A DNA stretch of 64,000 bases from Candidatus Hydrogenedentota bacterium (lineage in GTDB: Bacteria; Hydrogenedentota; Hydrogenedentia; Hydrogenedentales; SLHB01). Below, one piece after another: positions 7 to 54,632 of the stretch. The notes under the pieces are model-generated. The model did no database searches, had not been told where the DNA came from, and saw nothing but the letters and a program-made list of their open reading frames with translations. The stretch's first letter is position 1. Each line of letters opens with the position of its first letter. The position numbers were made by a program, and so were the translations under genes. Location: assembly GCA_045863335.1 (NCBI GenBank), contig BTVY01000030.1:30799-94798 (forward strand), in the 5' to 3' direction.

Positions 7-1047
7 TTGCTCCCGGAGGTGGAGAACGTTGTTGTCTTCAAGGAGACGGACAAGTTCGCCGGGTGGCCCGCCAACAACGGGATGTGGGCCTGGGGCAACG
101 AAATGGTGGTCGGTTTCGTGGTCGGACAGTTCGATGACGAAAAGCAAGACGGACACCCCATCAAGCCACCCTCAACGCAGCGGCAGGCGCGTACTCTGGA
201 CGGCGGTCATACATGGACCATTGAGAAACCTTCATTTCTTGATGAGGACGAGAAGGAAGCGGAGCCCACGGCGTTGACGGAGCCGATCAATTTCACCCAT
301 CCCGATTTCGCCTTCAAGTTCCGATCGGGACAGGCCAGCTTTTACTACAGCCTGGATCGGTGCAAGACCTGGAAAGGGCCGTATACATTTCCGGCCTTTG
401 ACCGGCCCGGGGTACTGGCGAGGACCGACTATATCGTCAACGGCGAGCGCGACATGTTTGTCTTTCTCACATCGCCGAAGGACAACGAGGACGAGGGCTG
501 GCCGTATTGCGCGCGGACGCAGGACGGCGGGTTAACCTGGGAACACGTGGGATGGATTGGCGAGCAGCCGCCGGTGAACGGTTATGGGTACGCGATCATG
601 CCGTCGACGGTGCGGCTAGCCAGTGGCGCGTTTCTTTCCATCATTCGGCACGGCGGCCAGTTCGACGGCGAGAAACGCTGGTGGCTGGACGCCTACCTTT
701 CACCGGACGAAGGCAAGAGTTGGTACCTCCTGGACAAGCCGTACATCGACAACGCGGGGAATCCTGCGAGTTTAATTAAGCTCGACGACGGCCGTCTCGC
801 GTTGATCTATGGATGGCGGCGGGCACCCTATGGCGTACGCGCCATCCTCTCGGATGATGAGGGACAGACGTGGAGTCCGGAGATTGTATTGCGCCACGAC
901 GCGGCCGTATGGGACATCGGCTATCCGCGGAGCGCGCAACGGCCGGATGGAAAAGTCGTCACGGTTGTGTACTACAACGTCGCTTCTGCAAAGGAACGAT
1001 TCATCGCCGCGACGATCTGGGATCCGCCCACGGCACCGGAGGATTAG
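7..1047 (+). CDS. BNR/Asp-box sialidase-like (beta-propeller) protein, probably 5'-truncated by the window edge
   Basis: Asp-box repeats (TLDGGHTW, SLDRCKTW, TQDGGLTW, SPDEGKSW, SDDEGQTW) and DIGYP motif. The frame is open to the window start. Confidence 0.8.
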   Translation: MLPEVENVVVFKETDKFAGWPANNGMWAWGNEMVVGFVVGQFDDEKQDGHPIKPPSTQRQARTLDGGHTWTIEKPSFLDEDEKEAEPTALTEPINFTHPDFAFKFRSGQASFYYSLDRCKTWKGPYTFPAFDRPGVLARTDYIVNGERDMFVFLTSPKDNEDEGWPYCARTQDGGLTWEHVGWIGEQPPVNGYGYAIMPSTVRLASGAFLSIIRHGGQFDGEKRWWLDAYLSPDEGKSWYLLDKPYIDNAGNPASLIKLDDGRLALIYGWRRAPYGVRAILSDDEGQTWSPEIVLRHDAAVWDIGYPRSAQRPDGKVVTVVYYNVASAKERFIAATIWDPPTAPED

Positions 1048-1117: not shown

Positions 1118-1347
1118 CAAATCCGAAATTCGAAGCACGAAATCCGAAACAAGCACGAATGACCAAAATCCAAAAACGGTCTCGCGCCGCAAGAGATTGC
1201 GTCGAAGCCATTGCCTTTGCGGATTCGATCCTGGCCTCGCGGAGATCCGGGCGCTTCAACGCGAATACGGCTGTGCCCGGCCAATATTCGTTTCGAATTT
1301 CAGATTTGAGATTTGTTTCGGATTTCGTGCTTCGAATTTCGGATTTG
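1118..1347. repeat. MITE-like element with perfect 35-bp inverted repeats made of heptamer-like units
   Basis: CAAATCCGAAATTCGAAGCACGAAATCCGAAACAA (1118-1152) is the exact reverse complement of 1313-1347. It lies between convergent genes. Confidence 0.85.
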
Positions 1348-2657: not shown

Positions 2658-4028
2658 TTACAGAACCCCCCAACTGAGCGCCAGAGCCGCCAGGCTCAAA
2701 CAGATGAAGAAGCCGCACATATCGGTAATGGTTGTAAGGATTGGGGCAGCGGCCAAGGCGGGATCAATGCCCATGCCTCTGATCGCGAGGGGCAGAACGG
2801 CCCCAACGCTGGTTCCGATCATCGTATTCGCGAACAGTGTAAAGGCCGCAATGGCCGCGAGGTAGAAGTGCCCTTTCCAAATCATGCCGATTCCAAGGAT
2901 CATGGCCCCAAGCACGATACCGTTGAATAACGCGACCGAAGTTTCCTGCCACCAGACACGCAGAAAATCCCGAGGCTTGACGAGCCCGAGGGACAGTTCC
3001 CGGATGCTCACGGCGACCGCCTGACTCCCGGCGCACCCACTCATATCGGAAATCACGGGCAAAAACACCGCCAGCGCAATCACCTGTGCAAGTGTCGATT
3101 CATACAGCGCAATGACGCTGGCGGCCATGATATTGAGGAACACGTTTGGGGTCAGAAATGATAGCCGGCGAAACGCGCGTGAAACGATCGGCATGCTGCG
3201 GAGTTCTTCGCCGCCCACGATACCGCCGAAGCGCAAGAAGGTCCGTTCCGCAACTTCGCCGTGGGCCTCTTCCACGTCGGCCCGTTCAACGACGCCGACG
3301 AGCTTGCCGAAATTGTCGACCACGGGTACGCCGAAGAACATGTGCCGGTCGAAAACCTGTTCGAGTTCTACCAGCGTGGCATCGACGCTGACGCTGATGG
3401 GATTCAGGATCTGGATCTTGGCCAGGGGTGTGCTGCCGGGCGACAGGACGAGATCGCGCAGACGGACCACGCCTACGAGATTCCCCTTGTCGGACACGAC
3501 ATAGACATATTGCACACCGTAGTCTGAATACGTCTCGGCATTTTCGCGGAGGTCGTTAAGGACGTCGTGAACGCGGAGGGACTCGTTGTACGCGAGGTAC
3601 TCCGTGATCATAAGACCACCCGCGGTGTCGGACGGGTAGACCAGCAATGCTCGCGCGTCTTGCGCTTCTTCCGGGCTCATCTGAAGCAAGATGGCTTCCA
3701 GGTCGCCGTGGTCGAGTTCGCTCAGCACGTCCGCGCGGATGTCGCTGTCCATCTCGTCCATGATGGCGGCGGCCTGGGGGACAGGCAGGTCTTCGATGAG
3801 GTCGGCGCCGACGGCTTCATGGAGTTCCTCGATGACGTCGGCCGCGTCTTCGGGATCGAGGAGGGTCAGCACGGCGGATTGGTCTTCTTCGTTCAACCGC
3901 GACATGGCGCGCGCCAGTTCGGATGGCGATAGTTGGGCGAGGTAGGCGGTGAGGCCAGGACTATCCTGCCGTTCGACGAATTCCTCGATTTGTTCCCATG
4001 TCTCGATGTTTGGCTGATCCGTCATCAA
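2658..4028 (-). CDS. mgtE: magnesium transporter MgtE
   Basis: Acidic N-domain, TAGGLM and CBS pair, TM region with DMSGCAGSQA and DPALAAAPILTTITDMCG. Confidence 0.93.
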   Translation of the reverse strand: MMTDQPNIETWEQIEEFVERQDSPGLTAYLAQLSPSELARAMSRLNEEDQSAVLTLLDPEDAADVIEELHEAVGADLIEDLPVPQAAAIMDEMDSDIRADVLSELDHGDLEAILLQMSPEEAQDARALLVYPSDTAGGLMITEYLAYNESLRVHDVLNDLRENAETYSDYGVQYVYVVSDKGNLVGVVRLRDLVLSPGSTPLAKIQILNPISVSVDATLVELEQVFDRHMFFGVPVVDNFGKLVGVVERADVEEAHGEVAERTFLRFGGIVGGEELRSMPIVSRAFRRLSFLTPNVFLNIMAASVIALYESTLAQVIALAVFLPVISDMSGCAGSQAVAVSIRELSLGLVKPRDFLRVWWQETSVALFNGIVLGAMILGIGMIWKGHFYLAAIAAFTLFANTMIGTSVGAVLPLAIRGMGIDPALAAAPILTTITDMCGFFICLSLAALALSWGVL

Positions 4029-48397: not shown

Positions 48398-48583
48398 ACA
48401 CGGACCTACACGGACCTACACGGACCTACACGGACACGCACGGACACGCGCAGTCGAGCGCAGTCGAGCGCAGTCGAGCGCGGACTCCCAAAAAAAAGGC
48501 GTGGGCAACGCCCACGCCCGGATATTGCCAATCCGCAATCCGAAATCCGCAGTCCGCAATTCCCCCTCCAGCCTACAGCCTAC
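48398..48583. repeat. composite short tandem repeat array (10-mers then 7-mers)
   Basis: (ACACGGACCT)x3, ACACGGACAC/GCACGGACAC variants, (GCAGTCGAGC)x3, then AATCCGC/AATCCGA heptamers and CCTCCAG-CCTACAG-CCTAC. Confidence 0.85.
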
Positions 48584-49779: not shown

Positions 49780-49857
49780 CTGGAGGCCGGAGACTGGAGA
49801 CCGGAGGCTGGAGGAAGAAGAAGACACGGGCCCGCACGGACCCAGACGGACGGACCA
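49780..49857. repeat. heptamer tandem array plus degenerate ACGGAC-type repeats
   Basis: CTGGAGG CCGGAGA CTGGAGA CCGGAGG CTGGAGG, then ACACGGGCCC GCACGGACCC AGACGGACGGACC. Confidence 0.7.
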
Positions 49858-49865
49858 AAACGGTT

Positions 49866-51390: not shown

Positions 51391-51978
51391 CTATCCAATT
51401 TCCTTAAGTTCCCGCTCGTAGTCTTCCGGCGTATCCATATCGCGCAGCACCCCCGGCGCCTGTACCGGCAAGCGGTGCACGTGTTCGGGATGTCCATAGA
51501 TTAACCCGCGCAGCCCCGTGTCGTCGAACTTGGTCATCACATCGCCGCGATATGACATGGAGATGATGATGGGATGCCCGGTGTCGTCCTCGTAGAGCGG
51601 GACGACGATCCCTTTCTCCACCGCGCGGAATCCCGCGATGAGTTGATCGATCGTCGGAGCATCGATCGAGGGCTGGTCGCCGAGGACGATCATAAAACCT
51701 TCGGCTGCCGGCGTGACTGCTTGCAGTCCGGCCCGTATCGACGTGAGCATGCCGTCCTTGTACCTCGGATTCTCGACAAAGGTTACGGGCTTCCCAAGCA
51801 ACGCGGCTTCTACGGCCTGAACGTCGTGCCCGGTGACCACAATGGTTTGGGCGATTTCGCTGGTGAGGACTTGCGACACGATGTGTTCGATAACAGTCTT
51901 GTCGCCATAGGGCAACACCAGTTTCTGACGCCCCATGCGGCGGGACTCACCCGCAGCCAATACAATCGCAGCGATCAC
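51391..51978 (-). CDS. mocA: molybdenum cofactor cytidylyltransferase (MocA-like)
   Basis: VLAAGESRRMG..K, GM.TSI..GL, LGDQP, GHP and DMDTPEDY motifs. GTG start overlaps the xdhC stop. Confidence 0.85.
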   Translation of the reverse strand: MIAAIVLAAGESRRMGRQKLVLPYGDKTVIEHIVSQVLTSEIAQTIVVTGHDVQAVEAALLGKPVTFVENPRYKDGMLTSIRAGLQAVTPAAEGFMIVLGDQPSIDAPTIDQLIAGFRAVEKGIVVPLYEDDTGHPIIISMSYRGDVMTKFDDTGLRGLIYGHPEHVHRLPVQAPGVLRDMDTPEDYERELKEIG

Positions 51979-53030
51979 TGGGGAACGAACTCCGCCATGG
52001 GTTTCACGGCGCCGGTCTTCTTGCGACGGACGGCGACAAGTTCCGCCGCGATACTGGTCGCGATCTCCTCCACAGAGAGTGCGCCAATATCGAGCCCCAC
52101 GGGCGCGTGGACGCGCTGAAAGTCCTGCTCGGTAGCGATGCCTTCGTCGAGGAACCCCTGGCGGATGATATGAACCTTCCGGCGGCTTCCAATCATCCCG
52201 ATATACGCCGCGGAAGAGTGAATGCACTCCTTGAGAACCACGCCATCATGGCGGTGACCGCGCGTAACGATAAGAATGTACGTGCTCGAATCAACGGGAA
52301 ACTCCGCAACCGCCTTCGGAATGTCGCCGCAGATGGTTCGCACGCCGTCGGGGTACAGGCTCGCCTGCGTAAACGCGGGGCGGTCGTCGATGACGGTCAC
52401 CTCGAATCCCAGCCACGTTGCAAGTTTCGCCGTAGCCTGCCCCACGTGGCCGCCTCCCGCGATGAGCAGCGTGGGTGTCCGCTCGATGGGTTCGAGGTAC
52501 GAGGAGATGTCGTTGACCATGATGAGTTGGGGCCGCGCCTTGTCGAGACAGGCCTGAAGCTGTTCGAGCGTAAGTCTGACGTCCTCGGAAAGAGGCGCGC
52601 CATCTTCCCAGCAGATGGCCTTGCCCAAATTGATGGGATCGCCATCGGCCAGTGTAATCAACACACCGCGACGGCCTTCATGTATAAGCGCGGATGCGCG
52701 GGCAAAGGCATCGCGATTCTTCGCTGGTTCAGGATCGATGAAGACCCGGACATTTCCGCCGCAAATGAGACCATCGTCCCAGCCGTAGTCATCGTTGAGA
52801 TGGAGGTCGAAGAGCAGCGGCGTGCCGCTATCGAGCGCGTCCAGAGCGCGGCGACGGGACTCCGCTTCGAGACACCCGCCGCCCAGCGTGCCGTGGATCG
52901 CACCGGATGGTTCGAAGATTGCCTTGGCGCCGGCCTTCTGCGGCGTCGAGCCAGTAGCCGTGACCACCGCAGCGAACGCGAAGGGCGTCTTGGCGTCTAT
53001 GAGACTGACGAGTTTGGAATAGAAGTTCAT
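51975..53030 (-). CDS. xdhC: XdhC family molybdoenzyme maturation factor
   Basis: GSTPQKAGAK, GTLGGGCLE, GLICGG, GGGHV, YIGMIGSRRK and APVGLDIGA...EIA.SI.AEL motifs. Confidence 0.93.
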   Translation of the reverse strand: MNFYSKLVSLIDAKTPFAFAAVVTATGSTPQKAGAKAIFEPSGAIHGTLGGGCLEAESRRRALDALDSGTPLLFDLHLNDDYGWDDGLICGGNVRVFIDPEPAKNRDAFARASALIHEGRRGVLITLADGDPINLGKAICWEDGAPLSEDVRLTLEQLQACLDKARPQLIMVNDISSYLEPIERTPTLLIAGGGHVGQATAKLATWLGFEVTVIDDRPAFTQASLYPDGVRTICGDIPKAVAEFPVDSSTYILIVTRGHRHDGVVLKECIHSSAAYIGMIGSRRKVHIIRQGFLDEGIATEQDFQRVHAPVGLDIGALSVEEIATSIAAELVAVRRKKTGAVKPMAEFVPQ

Positions 53031-53074
53031 GGGGGAAGTCTACGGGGCGAACCACGAGGTATCAAATCGGAGTT

Positions 53075-53125
53075 ATGGACTTTATGGACGAAATGGACTA
53101 TATGGACTATATGGACGGTATGGAC
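53075..53125 (+). repeat. 9-bp period tandem array (ATGGAC-nnn)x6
   Basis: ATGGAC at 53075, 53084, 53093, 53102, 53111 and 53120. Confidence 0.9.
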
Positions 53126-53171
53126 CAAAAAACCGCAGATTGATTCGGACGGAGGAGTCGGGGGAAGCGAT

Positions 53172-53846
53172 ATGCATGGCGATGAACCGTTGATCCCCAA
53201 ACACGGCGGTTACCGAAAGCTCAAGACCTTTCAACTTGCACAAATCGTCTACGACATTACGGTGAGGTTCACCAAGCGCTACGTAGACGGCTGGAGCCGG
53301 ACCCGCGATCAGATGATTCAGGCAGCGCGTTCAGGTGTGCAGAATATTGCGGAAGGCTCGCAGGTTTCCGGGACGTCCAAGAAGAGCGAGATGGTGCTGA
53401 CCGGAGTCGCCCGGGGTAGCCTGGAAGAGCTTAGAGTTGACTACGAAGATTTTCTACGTCATCGGAATTTGCCTCTGTGGGAATGGAGCGATCCCAGGCG
53501 GAAGGCCTTGGTCGACGCCCGATGCACTTCCGCGGATGATGTTGCCCGATGGGTGAAGCATGTACGAGATGCAGCAAGGAAGCGCAGCCAGGATCAAGAA
53601 GCTTCGCCCGACATATCGGCGGGAGTGTCCATATCGTCCATATCGTCCATATCGTCCATTCCCGCCACCTACCCCGAAATTACCGCTAACGCCGTTCTCG
53701 TGCTAATCGGTGTGACGTGCAGCCTCTTGGATCGCCAACTTAACGCACAAGGCGAAGCCTTCAAACATGAGGGAGGCTTCAGCGAGCGCCTCTATCGTGT
53801 TCGTACGCAAAAACGCGATCAGCGACGCCGTCCCGATTCTTCCTGA
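53172..53846 (+). CDS. four-helix-bundle protein (Avd / 23S-IVS-protein-like) with suffix domain
   Basis: GGYRKLKTFQ, RTRDQMIQAARSGVQNIAEGS, VARGSLEELRVDYEDFLR, and suffix AN....LI.....LLDRQL.....F..EGGFSERLY..R. Confidence 0.88.
   Translation: MHGDEPLIPKHGGYRKLKTFQLAQIVYDITVRFTKRYVDGWSRTRDQMIQAARSGVQNIAEGSQVSGTSKKSEMVLTGVARGSLEELRVDYEDFLRHRNLPLWEWSDPRRKALVDARCTSADDVARWVKHVRDAARKRSQDQEASPDISAGVSISSISSISSIPATYPEITANAVLVLIGVTCSLLDRQLNAQGEAFKHEGGFSERLYRVRTQKRDQRRRPDSS
53627..53659 (-). repeat. inverted copy of the 9-bp array inside the four-helix-bundle gene
   Basis: GTCCAT at 53627, 53636, 53645 and 53654 (reverse complement of ATGGAC); it encodes SISSISSISSI. Confidence 0.9.
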
Positions 53847-54011
53847 AGGCCGATCACCCTCTCCTTGCACTATCCCCGGGCCGGTGTTAATGTGGATGTC
53901 GCTGTAAGGGTTCGTCGCAAGCTGTCGTCAGGAGCATGTGCGGACTGAATTGCTCGGTCCTTCCCTGTCGCGATACGAATCCCTGTTCGAAAACGCTGGA
54001 GGATTGTTCGT

Positions 54012-54632
54012 ATGCCGACTCATGACAAGCCGGAGGAACATTCGGGGCTGTCCCGGCGTGGATTCCTCAAGACGGTGGGTGCGGGAACGGTCGCCGGAGG
54101 CCTGGTCCGCGAAAGCGGAGGCGCCGCCACCGTCGCTGCGCAAGGTCCGGAAGTCGCCGGCCCCGCCGCGATTCCCCTCAAACTCTCGATCAACGGAAAG
54201 ACCCATTCGCTGAATGTCGAGCCACGCGTTACGTTGCTGGACGCACTGCGCAACTACCTGGATCTCACCGGCAGCAAGAAGGTCTGCGACCGCGGCACCT
54301 GCGGCGCTTGCACGGTGCTGCTGGACGGGAAGCCGGTGTACTCGTGCACGCTGCTCGCGGTCGAAGCGCAAGGCCACCAGATCACGACCATTGAAGGGCT
54401 CGGTTCGCCGGAAGAACTCAGTGCGCTGCAAAACGCCTTTGTCGAACATGACGCCCAGCAGTGCGGGTTCTGCACGCCCGGGTTTGTGGTGGCGTGTACG
54501 GCCTTCGTCAAAGACCATCCAAATGCGACGCTCGAAGAAGTGCGCGCGGGGCTGGGCGGCAACCTCTGCCGTTGCGGAACGTACCACGGCATTACCGAAG
54601 CGGTGCTCCAGGTCGCGAAGGGAGGTGCGTGA
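54012..54632 (+). CDS. Tat-signal 2x[2Fe-2S] subunit of a xanthine-oxidase-family molybdoenzyme (PaoA/YagT-like)
   Basis: SRRGFLK, CDRGTCGAC..C, QCGFCTPG and NLCRCG motifs. Confidence 0.95.
   Translation: MPTHDKPEEHSGLSRRGFLKTVGAGTVAGGLVRESGGAATVAAQGPEVAGPAAIPLKLSINGKTHSLNVEPRVTLLDALRNYLDLTGSKKVCDRGTCGACTVLLDGKPVYSCTLLAVEAQGHQITTIEGLGSPEELSALQNAFVEHDAQQCGFCTPGFVVACTAFVKDHPNATLEEVRAGLGGNLCRCGTYHGITEAVLQVAKGGA

What the first reader, a model, noticed from the sequence alone, without database searches (positions are those of the whole stretch)
53075..53846. Four-helix-bundle (Avd/IVS-like) gene bracketed by inverted 9-bp tandem arrays, one translated inside the protein
Seen: six ATGGAC-nnn units lie upstream of the ATG. 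Four reverse-complement GTCCAT-nnn units lie in frame inside the gene, between the bundle core and the suffix domain, where they encode SISSISSISSI. The gene occupies the divergent gap between xdhC and the molybdoenzyme operon and has no obvious functional link to either. Known: this fold family includes the DGR accessory protein Avd and proteins encoded in 23S rRNA intervening sequences, both tied to structured RNA. Inference: the arrays could pair in several registers to close a ~500-nt loop holding the RBS and bundle core. That would define a transposase-free mobile or RNA-processed cassette recognised by its own product.
Basis: partly seen in the sequence, partly recalled or inferred. Interest (0 to 1): 0.8.

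Follow-up and report, generated by a model that had tools for sequence, protein, structure and literature searches.

The report
Hairpin-armed four-helix-bundle gene cassette
A small gene of unknown function sits between unrelated metabolic genes as an insertable block whose two mirror-image runs of a 9-base repeat can pair, and one run lies inside the gene itself, where the DNA motif rather than the encoded peptide has been conserved across many bacterial phyla.

Summary
Six ATGGACnnn units lie at 53075-53125. Four GTCCATnnn units lie at 53627-53659, in frame in a 224-aa four-helix-bundle "suffix" protein (53172-53846). That is 9 pattern matches against 0.03 expected.

It is one member of a gene-in-a-repeat-hairpin design. 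This scan has already noted that design on other DNA (127 notes).

- In this genome, 9 of 11 four-helix-bundle or PDDEXK_3 genes have 26-46-nt inverted arms built of tandem units, each locus with its own unit.
- The block ~53075-53858 is missing from the xdhC-paoA gap of the two closest congeners. It is present, arms included, in a third.
- New here: the in-gene arm belongs to the subfamily, not to this locus alone. In 80 relatives from at least 15 phyla, TGGAC and GTCCA runs lie in the same loop and always in one frame (38/38, 43/43).
- Codon use there is forced: Ser is TCC in 95% of cases against 16% elsewhere.
- The array-coded stretch is a disordered loop between helices 3 and 4 of the bundle, so the "suffix" supplies helix 4.

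The mechanism is inferred. The arms probably pair in the RNA, as in an rRNA intervening sequence (IVS). Recognition by the gene's own product is untested.

The parts
53075..53125 (+). 5' arm: six ATGGAC-nnn units (period 9). It forms the left end of the inserted block.
   Evidence: Absent from the empty sites of G003 and G005. Present as 8 units in G004.
53126..53171 (+). Leader between the arm and the start codon. It holds GGAGGAG at 53151-53157 and GGGGGAAG at 53160-53167, which are possible Shine-Dalgarno sites.
   Evidence: Read. No sigma-70-like promoter for the + strand was found in 52950-54050.
53172..53846 (+). Gene for a 224-aa four-helix-bundle protein of the 'suffix' subfamily.
   Evidence: TIGR04258 and TIGR02436 are above their cut-offs. 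AF2 model: pLDDT 80, pTM 0.74. 2gsc_D: Z 16.6, rmsd 1.5, 112 of 115 residues aligned over model 12..194.
53223..53462 (+). Codes helices 1-3 of the bundle (aa 18-97).
   Evidence: DSSP on the model: H18-37, H43-64, H70-97. The TIGR02436 match covers aa 18-88.
53463..53596 (+). Conserved helical insert (aa ~98-141) between helix 3 and the array loop.
   Evidence: H108-116 and H121-141 in the model. Invariant D107, P108, R110, L113, R117, C118, A125 and W127 in 43 aligned homologs.
53627..53659 (+). 3' arm: four GTCCAT-nnn units, the reverse complement of the 5' arm. It is translated in frame as SISSISSISSI inside a disordered loop.
   Evidence: pLDDT is 43-47 over aa 141-160. The frame is the same as in 43 of 43 linker GTCCA runs in relatives.
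53673..53816 (+). 'Suffix' domain (aa 168-215). Its first helix is helix 4 of the bundle, followed by one more helix.
   Evidence: TIGR04258 match at aa 168-215. H167-200 and H203-219 in the model. The structural alignment to 2gsc_D runs to model residue 194.
53075..53858 (+). The whole block that is present or absent among congeners. It runs from the first repeat unit to about 12 nt past the stop codon.
   Evidence: Intervals compared. The xdhC-paoA gap is 981 nt here, against 210 nt (G003) and 214 nt (G005). A contig in run X15 joins 53049 to 53864.

Best explanation
Window ~53075-53858 is a hairpin-armed four-helix-bundle gene cassette. This is the same design as the ORF-bearing intervening sequences of 23S rRNA, but here it sits in an ordinary intergenic gap.

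Shown:
- It behaves as one block that is present or absent among congeners.
- Its arms are 9-nt tandem arrays with an ATGGAC core.
- In this 'suffix' subfamily an arm lies inside the ORF, in a disordered loop between helices 3 and 4 of the bundle.
- The nucleotide motif (TGGAC/GTCCA) is conserved there, not the peptide.
- The arrays travel with the protein clade across phyla.

Inferred mechanism: the arms act in the transcript. The 5' arm pairs with the in-ORF 3' arm, in any of three registers, to form a ~33-41-bp imperfect duplex. That duplex closes off the ribosome-binding site and the coding region for helices 1-3. Such a duplex is the kind of substrate RNase III cuts in rRNA intervening sequences. 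Ribosomes that read through the 3' arm must melt it, so translation and pairing or cleavage would compete. This would give post-transcriptional control of the gene.

How the block is gained or lost is unknown.
For: Arrays and their non-randomness.

Same packaging in this genome:
- Nine of 11 four-helix-bundle or PDDEXK_3 genes have 26-46-nt inverted arms made of tandem units, each locus with its own unit. One more has a 14-nt perfect pair. One (C25) has its arms in the linker and downstream.
- Of 12 inverted array pairs with loops of 300-1000 nt, 7 hold a four-helix-bundle gene and 1 a PDDEXK_3 gene. These two families have 11 members among ~5100 crude gene calls.

Block indel:
- G005 and G003 (XdhC 91% identical) have 214- and 210-nt gaps without the block.
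- G004 (XdhC 80%) has it at the same site, with 8 upstream and ~7 in-ORF units.
- An empty-site contig occurs in run X15.

Pairing: the MFE structure pairs the arms, z -2.95. Three registers reach dG -44 to -49, and the best duplex -52.2 kcal/mol.

Constraint at the nucleic-acid level, in 80 loci from at least 15 phyla:
- 54 of 80 have a tandem array in the linker.
- Exact-core runs are ordered: L+ 38, L- 43, U+ 15, D- 16, against U- 10 and D+ 4. None lies in the core.
- All 38 L+ and all 43 L- runs are in one frame.
- 23 of 80 linkers have a stronger internal inverted repeat than all 200 synonymous recodings, and 37 of 80 beat at least 190 of 200.
- In runs defined by peptide alone, Ser is TCC in 168 of 177 cases against 134 of 854 elsewhere. 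Gly is GGA in 138 of 150 against 96 of 752.

Gene and arrays travel together: 4 changes of core type on a tree built without the linker columns, against 12-15 in 1000 shuffles.

Precedent, from passages of PMC4990558 read: the Coxiella IVS has a 28-bp terminal stem cut by RNase III, an S23p ORF in the loop, and tandem heptamers (GACAGAT) upstream of that ORF.
Against: - No RNA ends, cleavage products or transcript boundaries were obtained. The only RNA-library evidence is one 198-nt contig (53063-53260, identical), and DNA carry-over is not excluded.
- No promoter was located, so it is not shown that the 5' arm is transcribed with the gene.
- The spacers of partner arms in 7 gene-less ATGGAC hairpins match only weakly better than non-partner arms (0.587 against 0.495; 340 of 5000 permutations reach this). 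Selection for a continuous stem is therefore not evident.
- The commonest family layout is a compact hairpin inside the linker (21 of 80). The U+/L- layout seen here occurs alone in 2 of 80.
- 15 of 80 relatives have no run of three exact cores. In 43 of 80, the linker's inverted repeat is not above recoding controls.
- Slippage copies units exactly, so identity within one arm is not independent evidence of selection.
- The two gene-less hairpins tested are syntenic in congeners. They are stable, not visibly mobile.
Confidence: 0.5

Rival explanations
1. The arrays are binding sites for the gene's own product. The protein forms a ring, as its solved relatives form homopentamers. Each subunit reads one clade-specific hexamer (ATGGAC) in single-stranded RNA or DNA, with the 3-nt spacers free to vary. 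This would resemble the way TRAP (the trp RNA-binding attenuation protein) reads spaced triplets; that comparison is recalled, not taken from any call. The gene would then autoregulate through the arrays in and before its ORF. The gene-less arrays elsewhere would be further targets. This can coexist with RNA pairing.
For: - The hexamer core is invariant while the spacers vary, in 38 ATGGAC loci of this genome.
- Arrays are stereotyped at 3-4 units (modal 4) in relatives.
- Core type is specific to the protein clade: TGGAC/9, AGGAC/9, GGGAC/9 and CGGAC/10 change 4 times on the tree, against 12-15 in shuffles.
- In G001 the only two triple ATGGAC matches in the genome lie in the linker of a close homolog there (63% identity).
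- The fold equals Xcc0516 (2gsc, Z 16.6) and resembles Avd in the DGR ribonucleoprotein (8ube_D, Z 12.8).
- The pentameric toroid of the Xanthomonas protein is stated in PMC4990558.
Against: - No binding was tested.
- G003 (72% complete) and G005 (91% complete) lack the cassette at this site, and their best hits are only 47% and 62% identical. Yet they hold 43 and 58 pattern matches, as many as G004 with 46.
- Related sequences share labels, so clade-specific arrays can reflect common descent alone.
- Modal array length is 4 units, not 5.
- No orientation bias of arrays relative to neighbouring genes was seen with crude gene calls.
Confidence: 0.2
2. The arms act in DNA. They extrude as hairpins or cruciforms on single strands during replication. 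There they serve as the cis sites by which the block is inserted, excised or copied by host or trans-acting enzymes. Tandem units would arise and be homogenised by slippage.
For: - The block is present or absent with its left border exactly at the first repeat unit.
- The DNA duplex of the arms is stable (dG -32.5 kcal/mol).
- Very similar proteins (52-66% identity) occur with the same arrays in at least 15 phyla, which argues for horizontal movement of gene plus arrays.
- Copy number differs between orthologs: 6 and 4 units here, 8 and ~7 in G004.
Against: - The right border of the block is ~12 nt past the stop codon, about 200 nt beyond the 3' arm. The arms therefore do not delimit the indel.
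- No target-site duplication is visible, and the empty sites carry ~13 nt not found here.
- No recombinase or transposase lies within ~3 kb.
- The cassette has diverged in step with its flanks between G000 and G004 (core 82%, XdhC 80%, PaoA 87%). This fits old residence plus loss rather than recent insertion.
- The two gene-less hairpins tested are syntenic in congeners.
Confidence: 0.15
3. The in-ORF array is a tolerated passenger. On this view a palindromic repeat element landed once in a permissive surface loop, like the Rickettsia palindromic elements that are translated inside genes (recalled, not taken from any call). It persists by slippage without any function. The upstream array is an unrelated intergenic repeat of the same genome-wide family.
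For: - The array-coded residues are disordered in the model (pLDDT 43-47).
- Linker length varies widely among relatives (75-249 nt).
- Some linkers carry nested extra arrays: a 12-nt array inside the hairpin loop in L045 and L046.
- 26 of 38 ATGGAC loci in this genome are solitary arrays.
Against: - A neutral insert should decay at the divergence seen (proteins ~60% identical across phyla). Instead the cores stay exact, in one frame in 81 of 81 runs, with Ser = TCC at 95% and Gly = GGA at 92%.
- The upstream arm belongs to the same indel block and is kept in the G004 ortholog.
- Upstream + arms recur in 15 of 80 relatives.
- With crude gene calls, the ATGGAC arrays are not seen well inside other genes: the 'inside' cases lie mostly in the first few hundred nt of a longest-ORF call or in short ORFs.
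Confidence: 0.1
4. Chance juxtaposition of two unrelated short tandem repeats.
For: The genome holds 586 short arrays, so arrays are common.
Against: - Expected matches to the pattern in the window are 0.03, against 9 seen.
- The same bracketing occurs at 9 of 11 genes of two small families.
- Both arrays are conserved in the G004 ortholog.
Confidence: 0.01

Closest known systems
ORF-bearing intervening sequences (IVS) of 23S rRNA (Coxiella burnetii, Leptospira; S23p ORF). Passages of PMC4990558 were read.
   Same: The protein family and fold are the same (2gsc Z 16.6, 2rld Z 15.1). The gene sits in the loop of a long stem made by inverted terminal sequences. The Coxiella element even has tandem heptamers upstream of the ORF, and copy number varies between strains.
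   Different: - This element lies between protein-coding genes, not in an rRNA helix. Rfam finds no rRNA here; the only hit is 5.8S at E 0.28.
- The arms are 9-nt tandem arrays.
- The 3' arm is inside the ORF and is translated.
- The stem encloses only helices 1-3.
- RNase III excision is not shown here.
Hairpin-armed four-helix-bundle cassettes noted earlier by this scan on other DNA (e1-730272, e1-728555, e1-2031928, e1-3312833 and others).
   Same: A small four-helix-bundle gene lies between inverted arrays of short tandem repeats. It is gained or lost as a block. Gene-less hairpins with the same unit occur elsewhere in the genome.
   Different: Going by their summaries, those notes describe 7-8-nt (one 7-15-nt) arrays outside the ORF. 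Here the unit is 9 nt and one arm is coding. The arrays sit in a loop within the bundle domain. That in-ORF placement is shown to be ancestral to a clade spanning at least 15 phyla.
Avd, the accessory protein of diversity-generating retroelements (DGRs).
   Same: A four-helix-bundle fold. 8ube_D, the Avd chain of a DGR ribonucleoprotein, aligns at Z 12.8, rmsd 2.5, 107 residues.
   Different: No reverse transcriptase or template/variable repeat lies next to the gene. The neighbours are xdhC, a MobA-like transferase and a 2Fe-2S subunit.
Rickettsia palindromic elements translated inside genes (recalled; no paper was read for this).
   Same: A palindromic repeat is carried in frame inside a protein-coding gene and placed in a surface-exposed, tolerant segment.
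   Different: Those elements are scattered through many unrelated genes. Here the arrays are otherwise intergenic. The in-ORF copy is tied to one protein family, at one loop and in one frame.
Intergenic heptamer repeats of bacteria, such as TAACTGA in Beggiatoaceae (PMC4679880; passages read).
   Same: Abundant short tandem repeats in intergenic regions, shared patchily between phyla.
   Different: That paper reports direct repeats upstream of start codons, with a single inverted case. The terms four-helix, S23 and intervening sequence gave no hit in its main text.

Membership tests
TIGR04258 four helix bundle suffix domain protein | HMM score above the curated cut-off | tested here: met
   66.5 bits against a cut-off of 40, aa 168-215, profile positions 1-48 of 49.
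TIGR02436 / PF05635 four-helix-bundle (23S rRNA IVS protein) family | HMM score above the curated cut-off | tested here: inconclusive
   TIGR02436 scores 29.1 bits against a cut-off of 24, but only over profile positions 4-69 of 109. PF05635 scores 28.6 bits, below its gathering score of 33.8. The database's precomputed Pfam column lists PF05635 for all 120 listed homologs.
TIGR02436 / PF05635 four-helix-bundle (23S rRNA IVS protein) family | Four-helix-bundle fold that superposes on solved members | tested here: met
   2gsc_D: Z 16.6, rmsd 1.5, 112 of 115 residues. 2rld_B: Z 15.1, rmsd 2.0, 110 of 112 residues. Both span model residues ~6-194, so helix 4 comes from the suffix. By Foldseek alone the same entries rank first but only at E 0.02. 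A sequence search of the PDB found nothing.
TIGR02436 / PF05635 four-helix-bundle (23S rRNA IVS protein) family | Homopentameric ring, as in the solved Xanthomonas protein | not tested
The pentamer is taken from PMC4990558.
ORF-bearing 23S rRNA intervening sequence | Inserted in a helix of 23S (or 16S) rRNA | tested here: not met
   The flanks are xdhC and a 2Fe-2S subunit gene. There is no rRNA match at gathering score in 52900-54100.
ORF-bearing 23S rRNA intervening sequence | Terminal inverted repeats form a stem that encloses the ORF | tested here: inconclusive
   A 33-41-nt imperfect stem is predicted. It encloses only aa 1-151, and helix 4 lies outside it.
ORF-bearing 23S rRNA intervening sequence | Excision by RNase III | not testable with these tools
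   The runs available are contigs and give no ends.
DGR accessory protein Avd | Encoded next to a DGR reverse transcriptase with template and variable repeats | tested here: not met
   The named ORFs within about 3 kb are a sulfatase-like gene (read by eye), a MobA-like transferase, XdhC and the oxidoreductase subunits. No search for reverse transcriptases was run on the whole genome.
Hairpin-armed four-helix-bundle cassette (class noted by this scan) | Inverted arrays of short tandem repeats around the gene, and the same design at paralogs | tested here: met
   Nine of 11 genes have 26-46-nt arms.
Hairpin-armed four-helix-bundle cassette (class noted by this scan) | Gained or lost as one block | tested here: met
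   Empty sites in G003 and G005, a filled site in G004, and an empty-site contig in X15.
Transposon or miniature inverted-repeat transposable element (MITE) | Terminal inverted repeats at both ends of the indel, a target-site duplication, and a transposase in cis or trans | tested here: not met
   The right end of the indel lies ~200 nt beyond the 3' arm. No duplication is seen at the borders. No transposase lies nearby.
In-frame palindromic elements (Rickettsia type) | The same element is scattered in frame through many unrelated genes | tested here: not met
   With crude gene calls, the ATGGAC arrays scored as 'inside' lie mostly in the first few hundred nt of longest-ORF calls, which are probably leaders, or in short ORFs.

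The most novel reading that the evidence does not exclude
Gene and repeats form a self-recognising module. A ring of the four-helix-bundle protein would read its own clade-specific hexamer array (here AUGGAC/ATGGAC, one unit per subunit). One such array is deliberately kept inside the coding sequence, so that the protein's binding, RNA pairing and translation are coupled. The dozens of gene-less arrays with the same core elsewhere in the genome would then be this protein's targets. The whole module moves between phyla as a unit. If so, a very large orphan protein family and the unexplained short tandem repeats of many bacteria would be two halves of one system.
Probability: 0.22. Interest if true: 0.85.

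Novelty: new variant of a known kind. Interest (0 to 1): 0.68.

Why it matters
The four-helix-bundle 'IVS protein' family is very large. None of the papers read here assigns it a function.

This locus gives a concrete handle on it. There is a cis element whose nucleotide sequence, not its peptide, is conserved inside the ORF across at least 15 phyla. There is also a natural pair of filled and empty sites.

The question 'what are these genes and these tandem repeats for' therefore becomes directly testable: recode the array, map RNA ends, and test binding.

There is also a practical point for annotation. Upstream and downstream arms are sometimes called as N- or C-terminal extensions, such as MDG...MDG heads and STKSTK tails.

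Tried and rejected
- RNA evidence. One search for runs and one lay of four runs gave only contigs. No ends, strand or level can be read from them, and contigs break at both arrays. The joint 53125->53626 in X3 carries 22 other letters that match the loop of another ATGGAC hairpin of this genome (C55). It is therefore not an excision product.
- Promoter, terminator and Rfam scans of the region found nothing useful.
- A sequence search of the PDB found no match at E <= 1. Foldseek alone gave only E 0.02. The fold match came from VIA-align.
- Partner-specific spacer complementarity was weak and the sample small: 7 hairpins, 340 of 5000 permutations as high. The script then stopped with an error before the TAGGAC and ACGGAC families were done, and I did not repeat it.
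- Array orientation relative to neighbouring genes showed no bias, using crude gene calls made by a script of my own.
- The 'one master gene, many miniatures' idea is not supported in a simple form. Loops of gene-less ATGGAC hairpins share nothing with the cassette interior. Arrays persist in G003 and G005 without the gene. Two gene-less hairpins are syntenic in congeners.
- The idea that the suffix arose by read-through of a 3' arm into foreign sequence is rejected, because the suffix supplies helix 4 of the bundle.
- Four other large loops (C22:93027, C48, C36, C3) hold no recognised family. ORFs from the C22:93027 and C3 loops gave at best a sub-threshold Pfam match (DUF4088, 17.1 against 23.8 bits); the C36 and C48 loops were not scanned.
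- Literature. Searches found no paper describing tandem-array hairpins around this gene family or an array inside the ORF. The terms were: intervening sequence, four-helix bundle, tandem repeats, 23S rRNA; TIGR02436, PF05635, TIGR04258, GxxExxY, 23S_rRNA_IVP, S23 ribosomal protein; STRR, heptamer repeats, inverted arrays; intervening sequence protein, HEPN, Avd. Subscription journals are not covered, and no supplements were opened.
Full report
**1. What is there**

The window is G000:C30:30799-94798, from a 6.75-Mb, 60% G+C draft genome of 105 contigs.

- At 53075-53125 there are six ATGGAC-nnn units.
- At 53627-53659 there are four GTCCAT-nnn units, the reverse complement.
- The pattern ATGGACNNNATGGAC matches 9 times in the window against 0.03 expected. 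Eight of those matches lie in the two arrays.
- The second array lies in frame in the ORF 53172-53846, where it reads SISSISSISSI.
- The 224-aa product passes the curated cut-offs of TIGR04258 (suffix domain, aa 168-215) and TIGR02436 (four-helix-bundle protein, aa 18-88). It falls just under Pfam's cut-off for PF05635.
- To the left, on the other strand, is xdhC (51975-53030). To the right is a TAT-signal 2Fe-2S subunit gene (54012-54632).

**2. It is not a one-off in this genome**

The genome has 8 loci with a four-helix-bundle gene: three of the suffix type, and one (C66) broken into two frames. It also has 3 PDDEXK_3 genes.

- Nine of these 11 genes lie between inverted arms of 26-46 nt built from short tandem units.
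- One further gene has a 14-nt perfect pair.
- One (C25) has its arms in the linker and downstream instead.
- Each locus has its own unit: TAGGACnnn, CACGGACnnn, TATGGGG, GAATTAn, ATTGCGG, GTCTnnA, ATCGGT, GCAGAT-type and GCGTTCTTT.

Genome-wide there are 586 arrays (at least 2.8 copies, period 5-14) and 65 inverted pairs within 3 kb. Of the 12 pairs whose loop is 300-1000 nt, 7 hold a four-helix-bundle gene and 1 a PDDEXK_3 gene.

Arrays with the ATGGAC unit occur at 38 loci: this cassette, 11 gene-less hairpins with 13-90-nt loops, and 26 solitary arrays, mostly of exactly four units.

This scan has recorded the same gene-in-hairpin design before, in at least 122 other genomes. I tested it afresh here.

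**3. It is a discrete block**

XdhC of congeners G005 and G003 is 91% identical to the one here.

- In both, xdhC and the 2Fe-2S gene are 214 and 210 nt apart, with no trace of arrays or gene.
- Here the gap is 981 nt.
- The flanks align up to the base before the first ATGGAC unit. They align again from about 12 nt after the stop codon.
- The empty sites carry about 13 nt that are not present here, and I see no target duplication.

The more distant congener G004 (XdhC 80%) has the cassette at the same site. It has 8 upstream units and about 7 degenerate in-ORF units, and a +1 frameshift after the core, which may be a real break or an assembly error.

The cassette's core protein (82%) has diverged like its flanks (80% and 87%). 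The simplest history is old residence followed by loss in the G003/G005 line, but independent gain is not excluded.

A contig in run X15 joins 53049 to 53864 with 17 other letters. It is an empty-site relative.

Note that the right border of the block lies beyond the suffix domain. The arms do not delimit the indel.

**4. The in-ORF array is a property of the subfamily, conserved as nucleic acid**

The suffix domain is found in 84 of 135 genomes of the window's phylum. In the phylum sample and among close homologs, arrays around these genes are almost all of period 9 or 10, with a GGAC-type core. Several lie in the linker.

I then took the 80 best genomic relatives (52-66% identical). By their record titles they come from at least 15 phyla, including Verrucomicrobiota, Planctomycetota, Chlorobiota, Bacteroidota, Nitrospirota, Acidobacteriota and Bacillota.

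- 54 of 80 have a tandem array in the linker.
- Runs of at least three exact cores at 9-nt spacing were counted by place. TGGAC is in the linker in 38 and GTCCA in the linker in 43. TGGAC is upstream in 15 and GTCCA downstream in 16. The opposite orientations are rarer (10 and 4). There are none inside the core, and no run at all in 15. The commonest layout is a compact hairpin inside the linker (21 of 80). The layout seen here (upstream +, linker -) occurs alone in 2.
- All 38 plus 43 linker runs are in one reading frame, the frame used here.
- In 23 of 80 linkers the internal inverted repeat is stronger than in all 200 synonymous recodings of the same peptide. In 37 of 80 it beats at least 190.
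- When runs are defined from the peptide alone, Ser is TCC in 168 of 177 cases against 134 of 854 elsewhere in the same genes. Gly is GGA in 138 of 150 against 96 of 752. The third base of the variable codon is G in 142 of 177, against 33% elsewhere.

What is conserved, then, is GTCCA/TGGAC and not Ser-Ile-x.

Two caveats apply. Slippage copies units, so identity within one array is not independent. The 80 loci were also chosen as the best matches to this protein.

**5. Protein structure**

The AlphaFold2 model was built from an alignment of 43 sequences (mean pLDDT 80, pTM 0.74). It has helices at 18-37, 43-64, 70-97, 108-116, 121-141, 167-200 and 203-219. Residues 144-162, which include the array-coded stretch, have pLDDT under 50.

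- VIA-align superposes 112 of 115 residues of Xcc0516 (2gsc_D) on model residues 12-194, at Z 16.6 and rmsd 1.5.
- It superposes 110 of 112 residues of BT_0352 (2rld_B) at Z 15.1.
- A DGR Avd chain (8ube_D) follows at Z 12.8.

The first 'suffix' helix is therefore helix 4 of the bundle. The array sits in a loop inside the domain, after a conserved two-helix insert.

**6. Arrays travel with the protein clade**

I built a tree of 111 suffix-type proteins without the linker and tail columns. Broken genes under 150 aa were dropped, and 83 rows could be labelled.

The core type (TGGAC/9, AGGAC/9, GGGAC/9, CGGAC/10) changes 4 times on this tree. In 1000 label shuffles it changes 12-15 times. Because related sequences share labels, this shows co-inheritance, not recognition.

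Two observations bear on recognition, in opposite directions.

- In G001 the only two triple ATGGAC matches in the genome lie in the linker of a close homolog there (63% identity).
- G003 and G005 lack the cassette, and no close ortholog was found in them. Yet they hold 43 and 58 matches. Their completeness is 72% and 91%.

Two gene-less hairpins that I checked are syntenic in congeners.

**7. How it probably works**

Shown: the anatomy, the block indel, the nucleotide-level conservation, and a predicted stem. The MFE fold pairs the arms (z -2.95). Three registers pair 29-31 of 33 positions.

Inferred: the arms act in RNA as in rRNA intervening sequences. In Coxiella a 28-bp terminal stem around an S23p ORF is cut by RNase III, and tandem heptamers precede the ORF (passages of PMC4990558). 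Because the 3' arm here is translated, ribosomes would melt the stem, which couples translation to pairing or cleavage.

I put this at about 0.5. The rivals are:
- a ring-protein/array recognition model (0.2), which can coexist with RNA pairing;
- a DNA-level role in gain and loss (0.15);
- a tolerated passenger (0.1).

No RNA ends, binding or movement were observed.

**8. Novelty**

The closest described thing is the ORF-bearing rRNA IVS. The closest undescribed thing is the class this scan has already noted.

My four literature searches found no paper on tandem-array hairpins around this family or on an array kept inside its ORF. Coverage excludes most subscription journals, and I opened no supplements.

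I file it as a new variant of a known kind. What is new is the coding, nucleotide-constrained arm inside the bundle domain and its conservation across phyla.

Noticed in passing
window 1118-1152 and 1313-1347: A 35-nt, 100% complementary inverted repeat built of AAATCCG-type heptamers, with 160 nt between the arms and no obvious gene in the loop. It is a gene-less hairpin whose heptamers resemble the CCGCAAT/ATTGCGG-type arms around the four-helix-bundle gene on C62.
   Followed up: partly
window 48398-48583 and 49780-49863: Intergenic stacks of several different tandem arrays side by side: ACACGGACCT x3.8, GCGCAGTCGA x3.4, CAATCCG x4.6 and CTGGAGG-type x5. They flank an ORF on the minus strand that I did not identify.
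   Followed up: no
G000:C22:11434-11769, C12:46373-46711, C4:112258-112611: Three PDDEXK_3 (PF13366) genes are packaged like the four-helix-bundle genes. They sit between inverted arms of 40, 31 and 14 nt. This is a second cargo family for the same kind of hairpin.
   Followed up: partly
G000:C66:12737-13032: The four-helix-bundle gene here matches the family models in two pieces in different frames, yet still lies between GTCTnnA-type arms. It is probably a decayed cassette.
   Followed up: no
L045 (G002:C127) and L046 (G001:C452): In these suffix-type genes the linker hairpin (CACGGAC-type arms, period 10) has a further 12-nt array (7-15 copies) nested in its loop. All of it is translated in frame as (A/G)PQ(S/G) repeats.
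   Followed up: no
L044 (G001:C799); proteins P0023, P0030, P0059, P0060, P0097: Downstream minus arms are read in frame as C-terminal S-T-K tails. Upstream plus arms are sometimes called as N-terminal 'MDG..MDG' or 'LWTGWT' extensions. These are likely annotation artefacts, or real tails coded by the arrays.
   Followed up: no
L004 (G004:C18), about 3096-3100 in the locus: The orthologous cassette has a +1 frameshift just after the core, so the frame ends early. This is either a pseudogene or an assembly error.
   Followed up: no
G000 genome-wide: Some abundant array families had no gene-bearing copy in this draft: CTGGAGG/CCGGAG (21 arrays), CGGGAT (21) and AATGATG (8). Contigs often end in arrays, so copies may be unassembled.
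   Followed up: no
G000:C3:203951-204967 and C22:93027-93516: Inverted array pairs with 917- and 421-nt loops. Their ORFs match no Pfam family above cut-off (DUF4088 at 17.1 bits against 23.8). They may be unknown or decayed cargo.
   Followed up: partly
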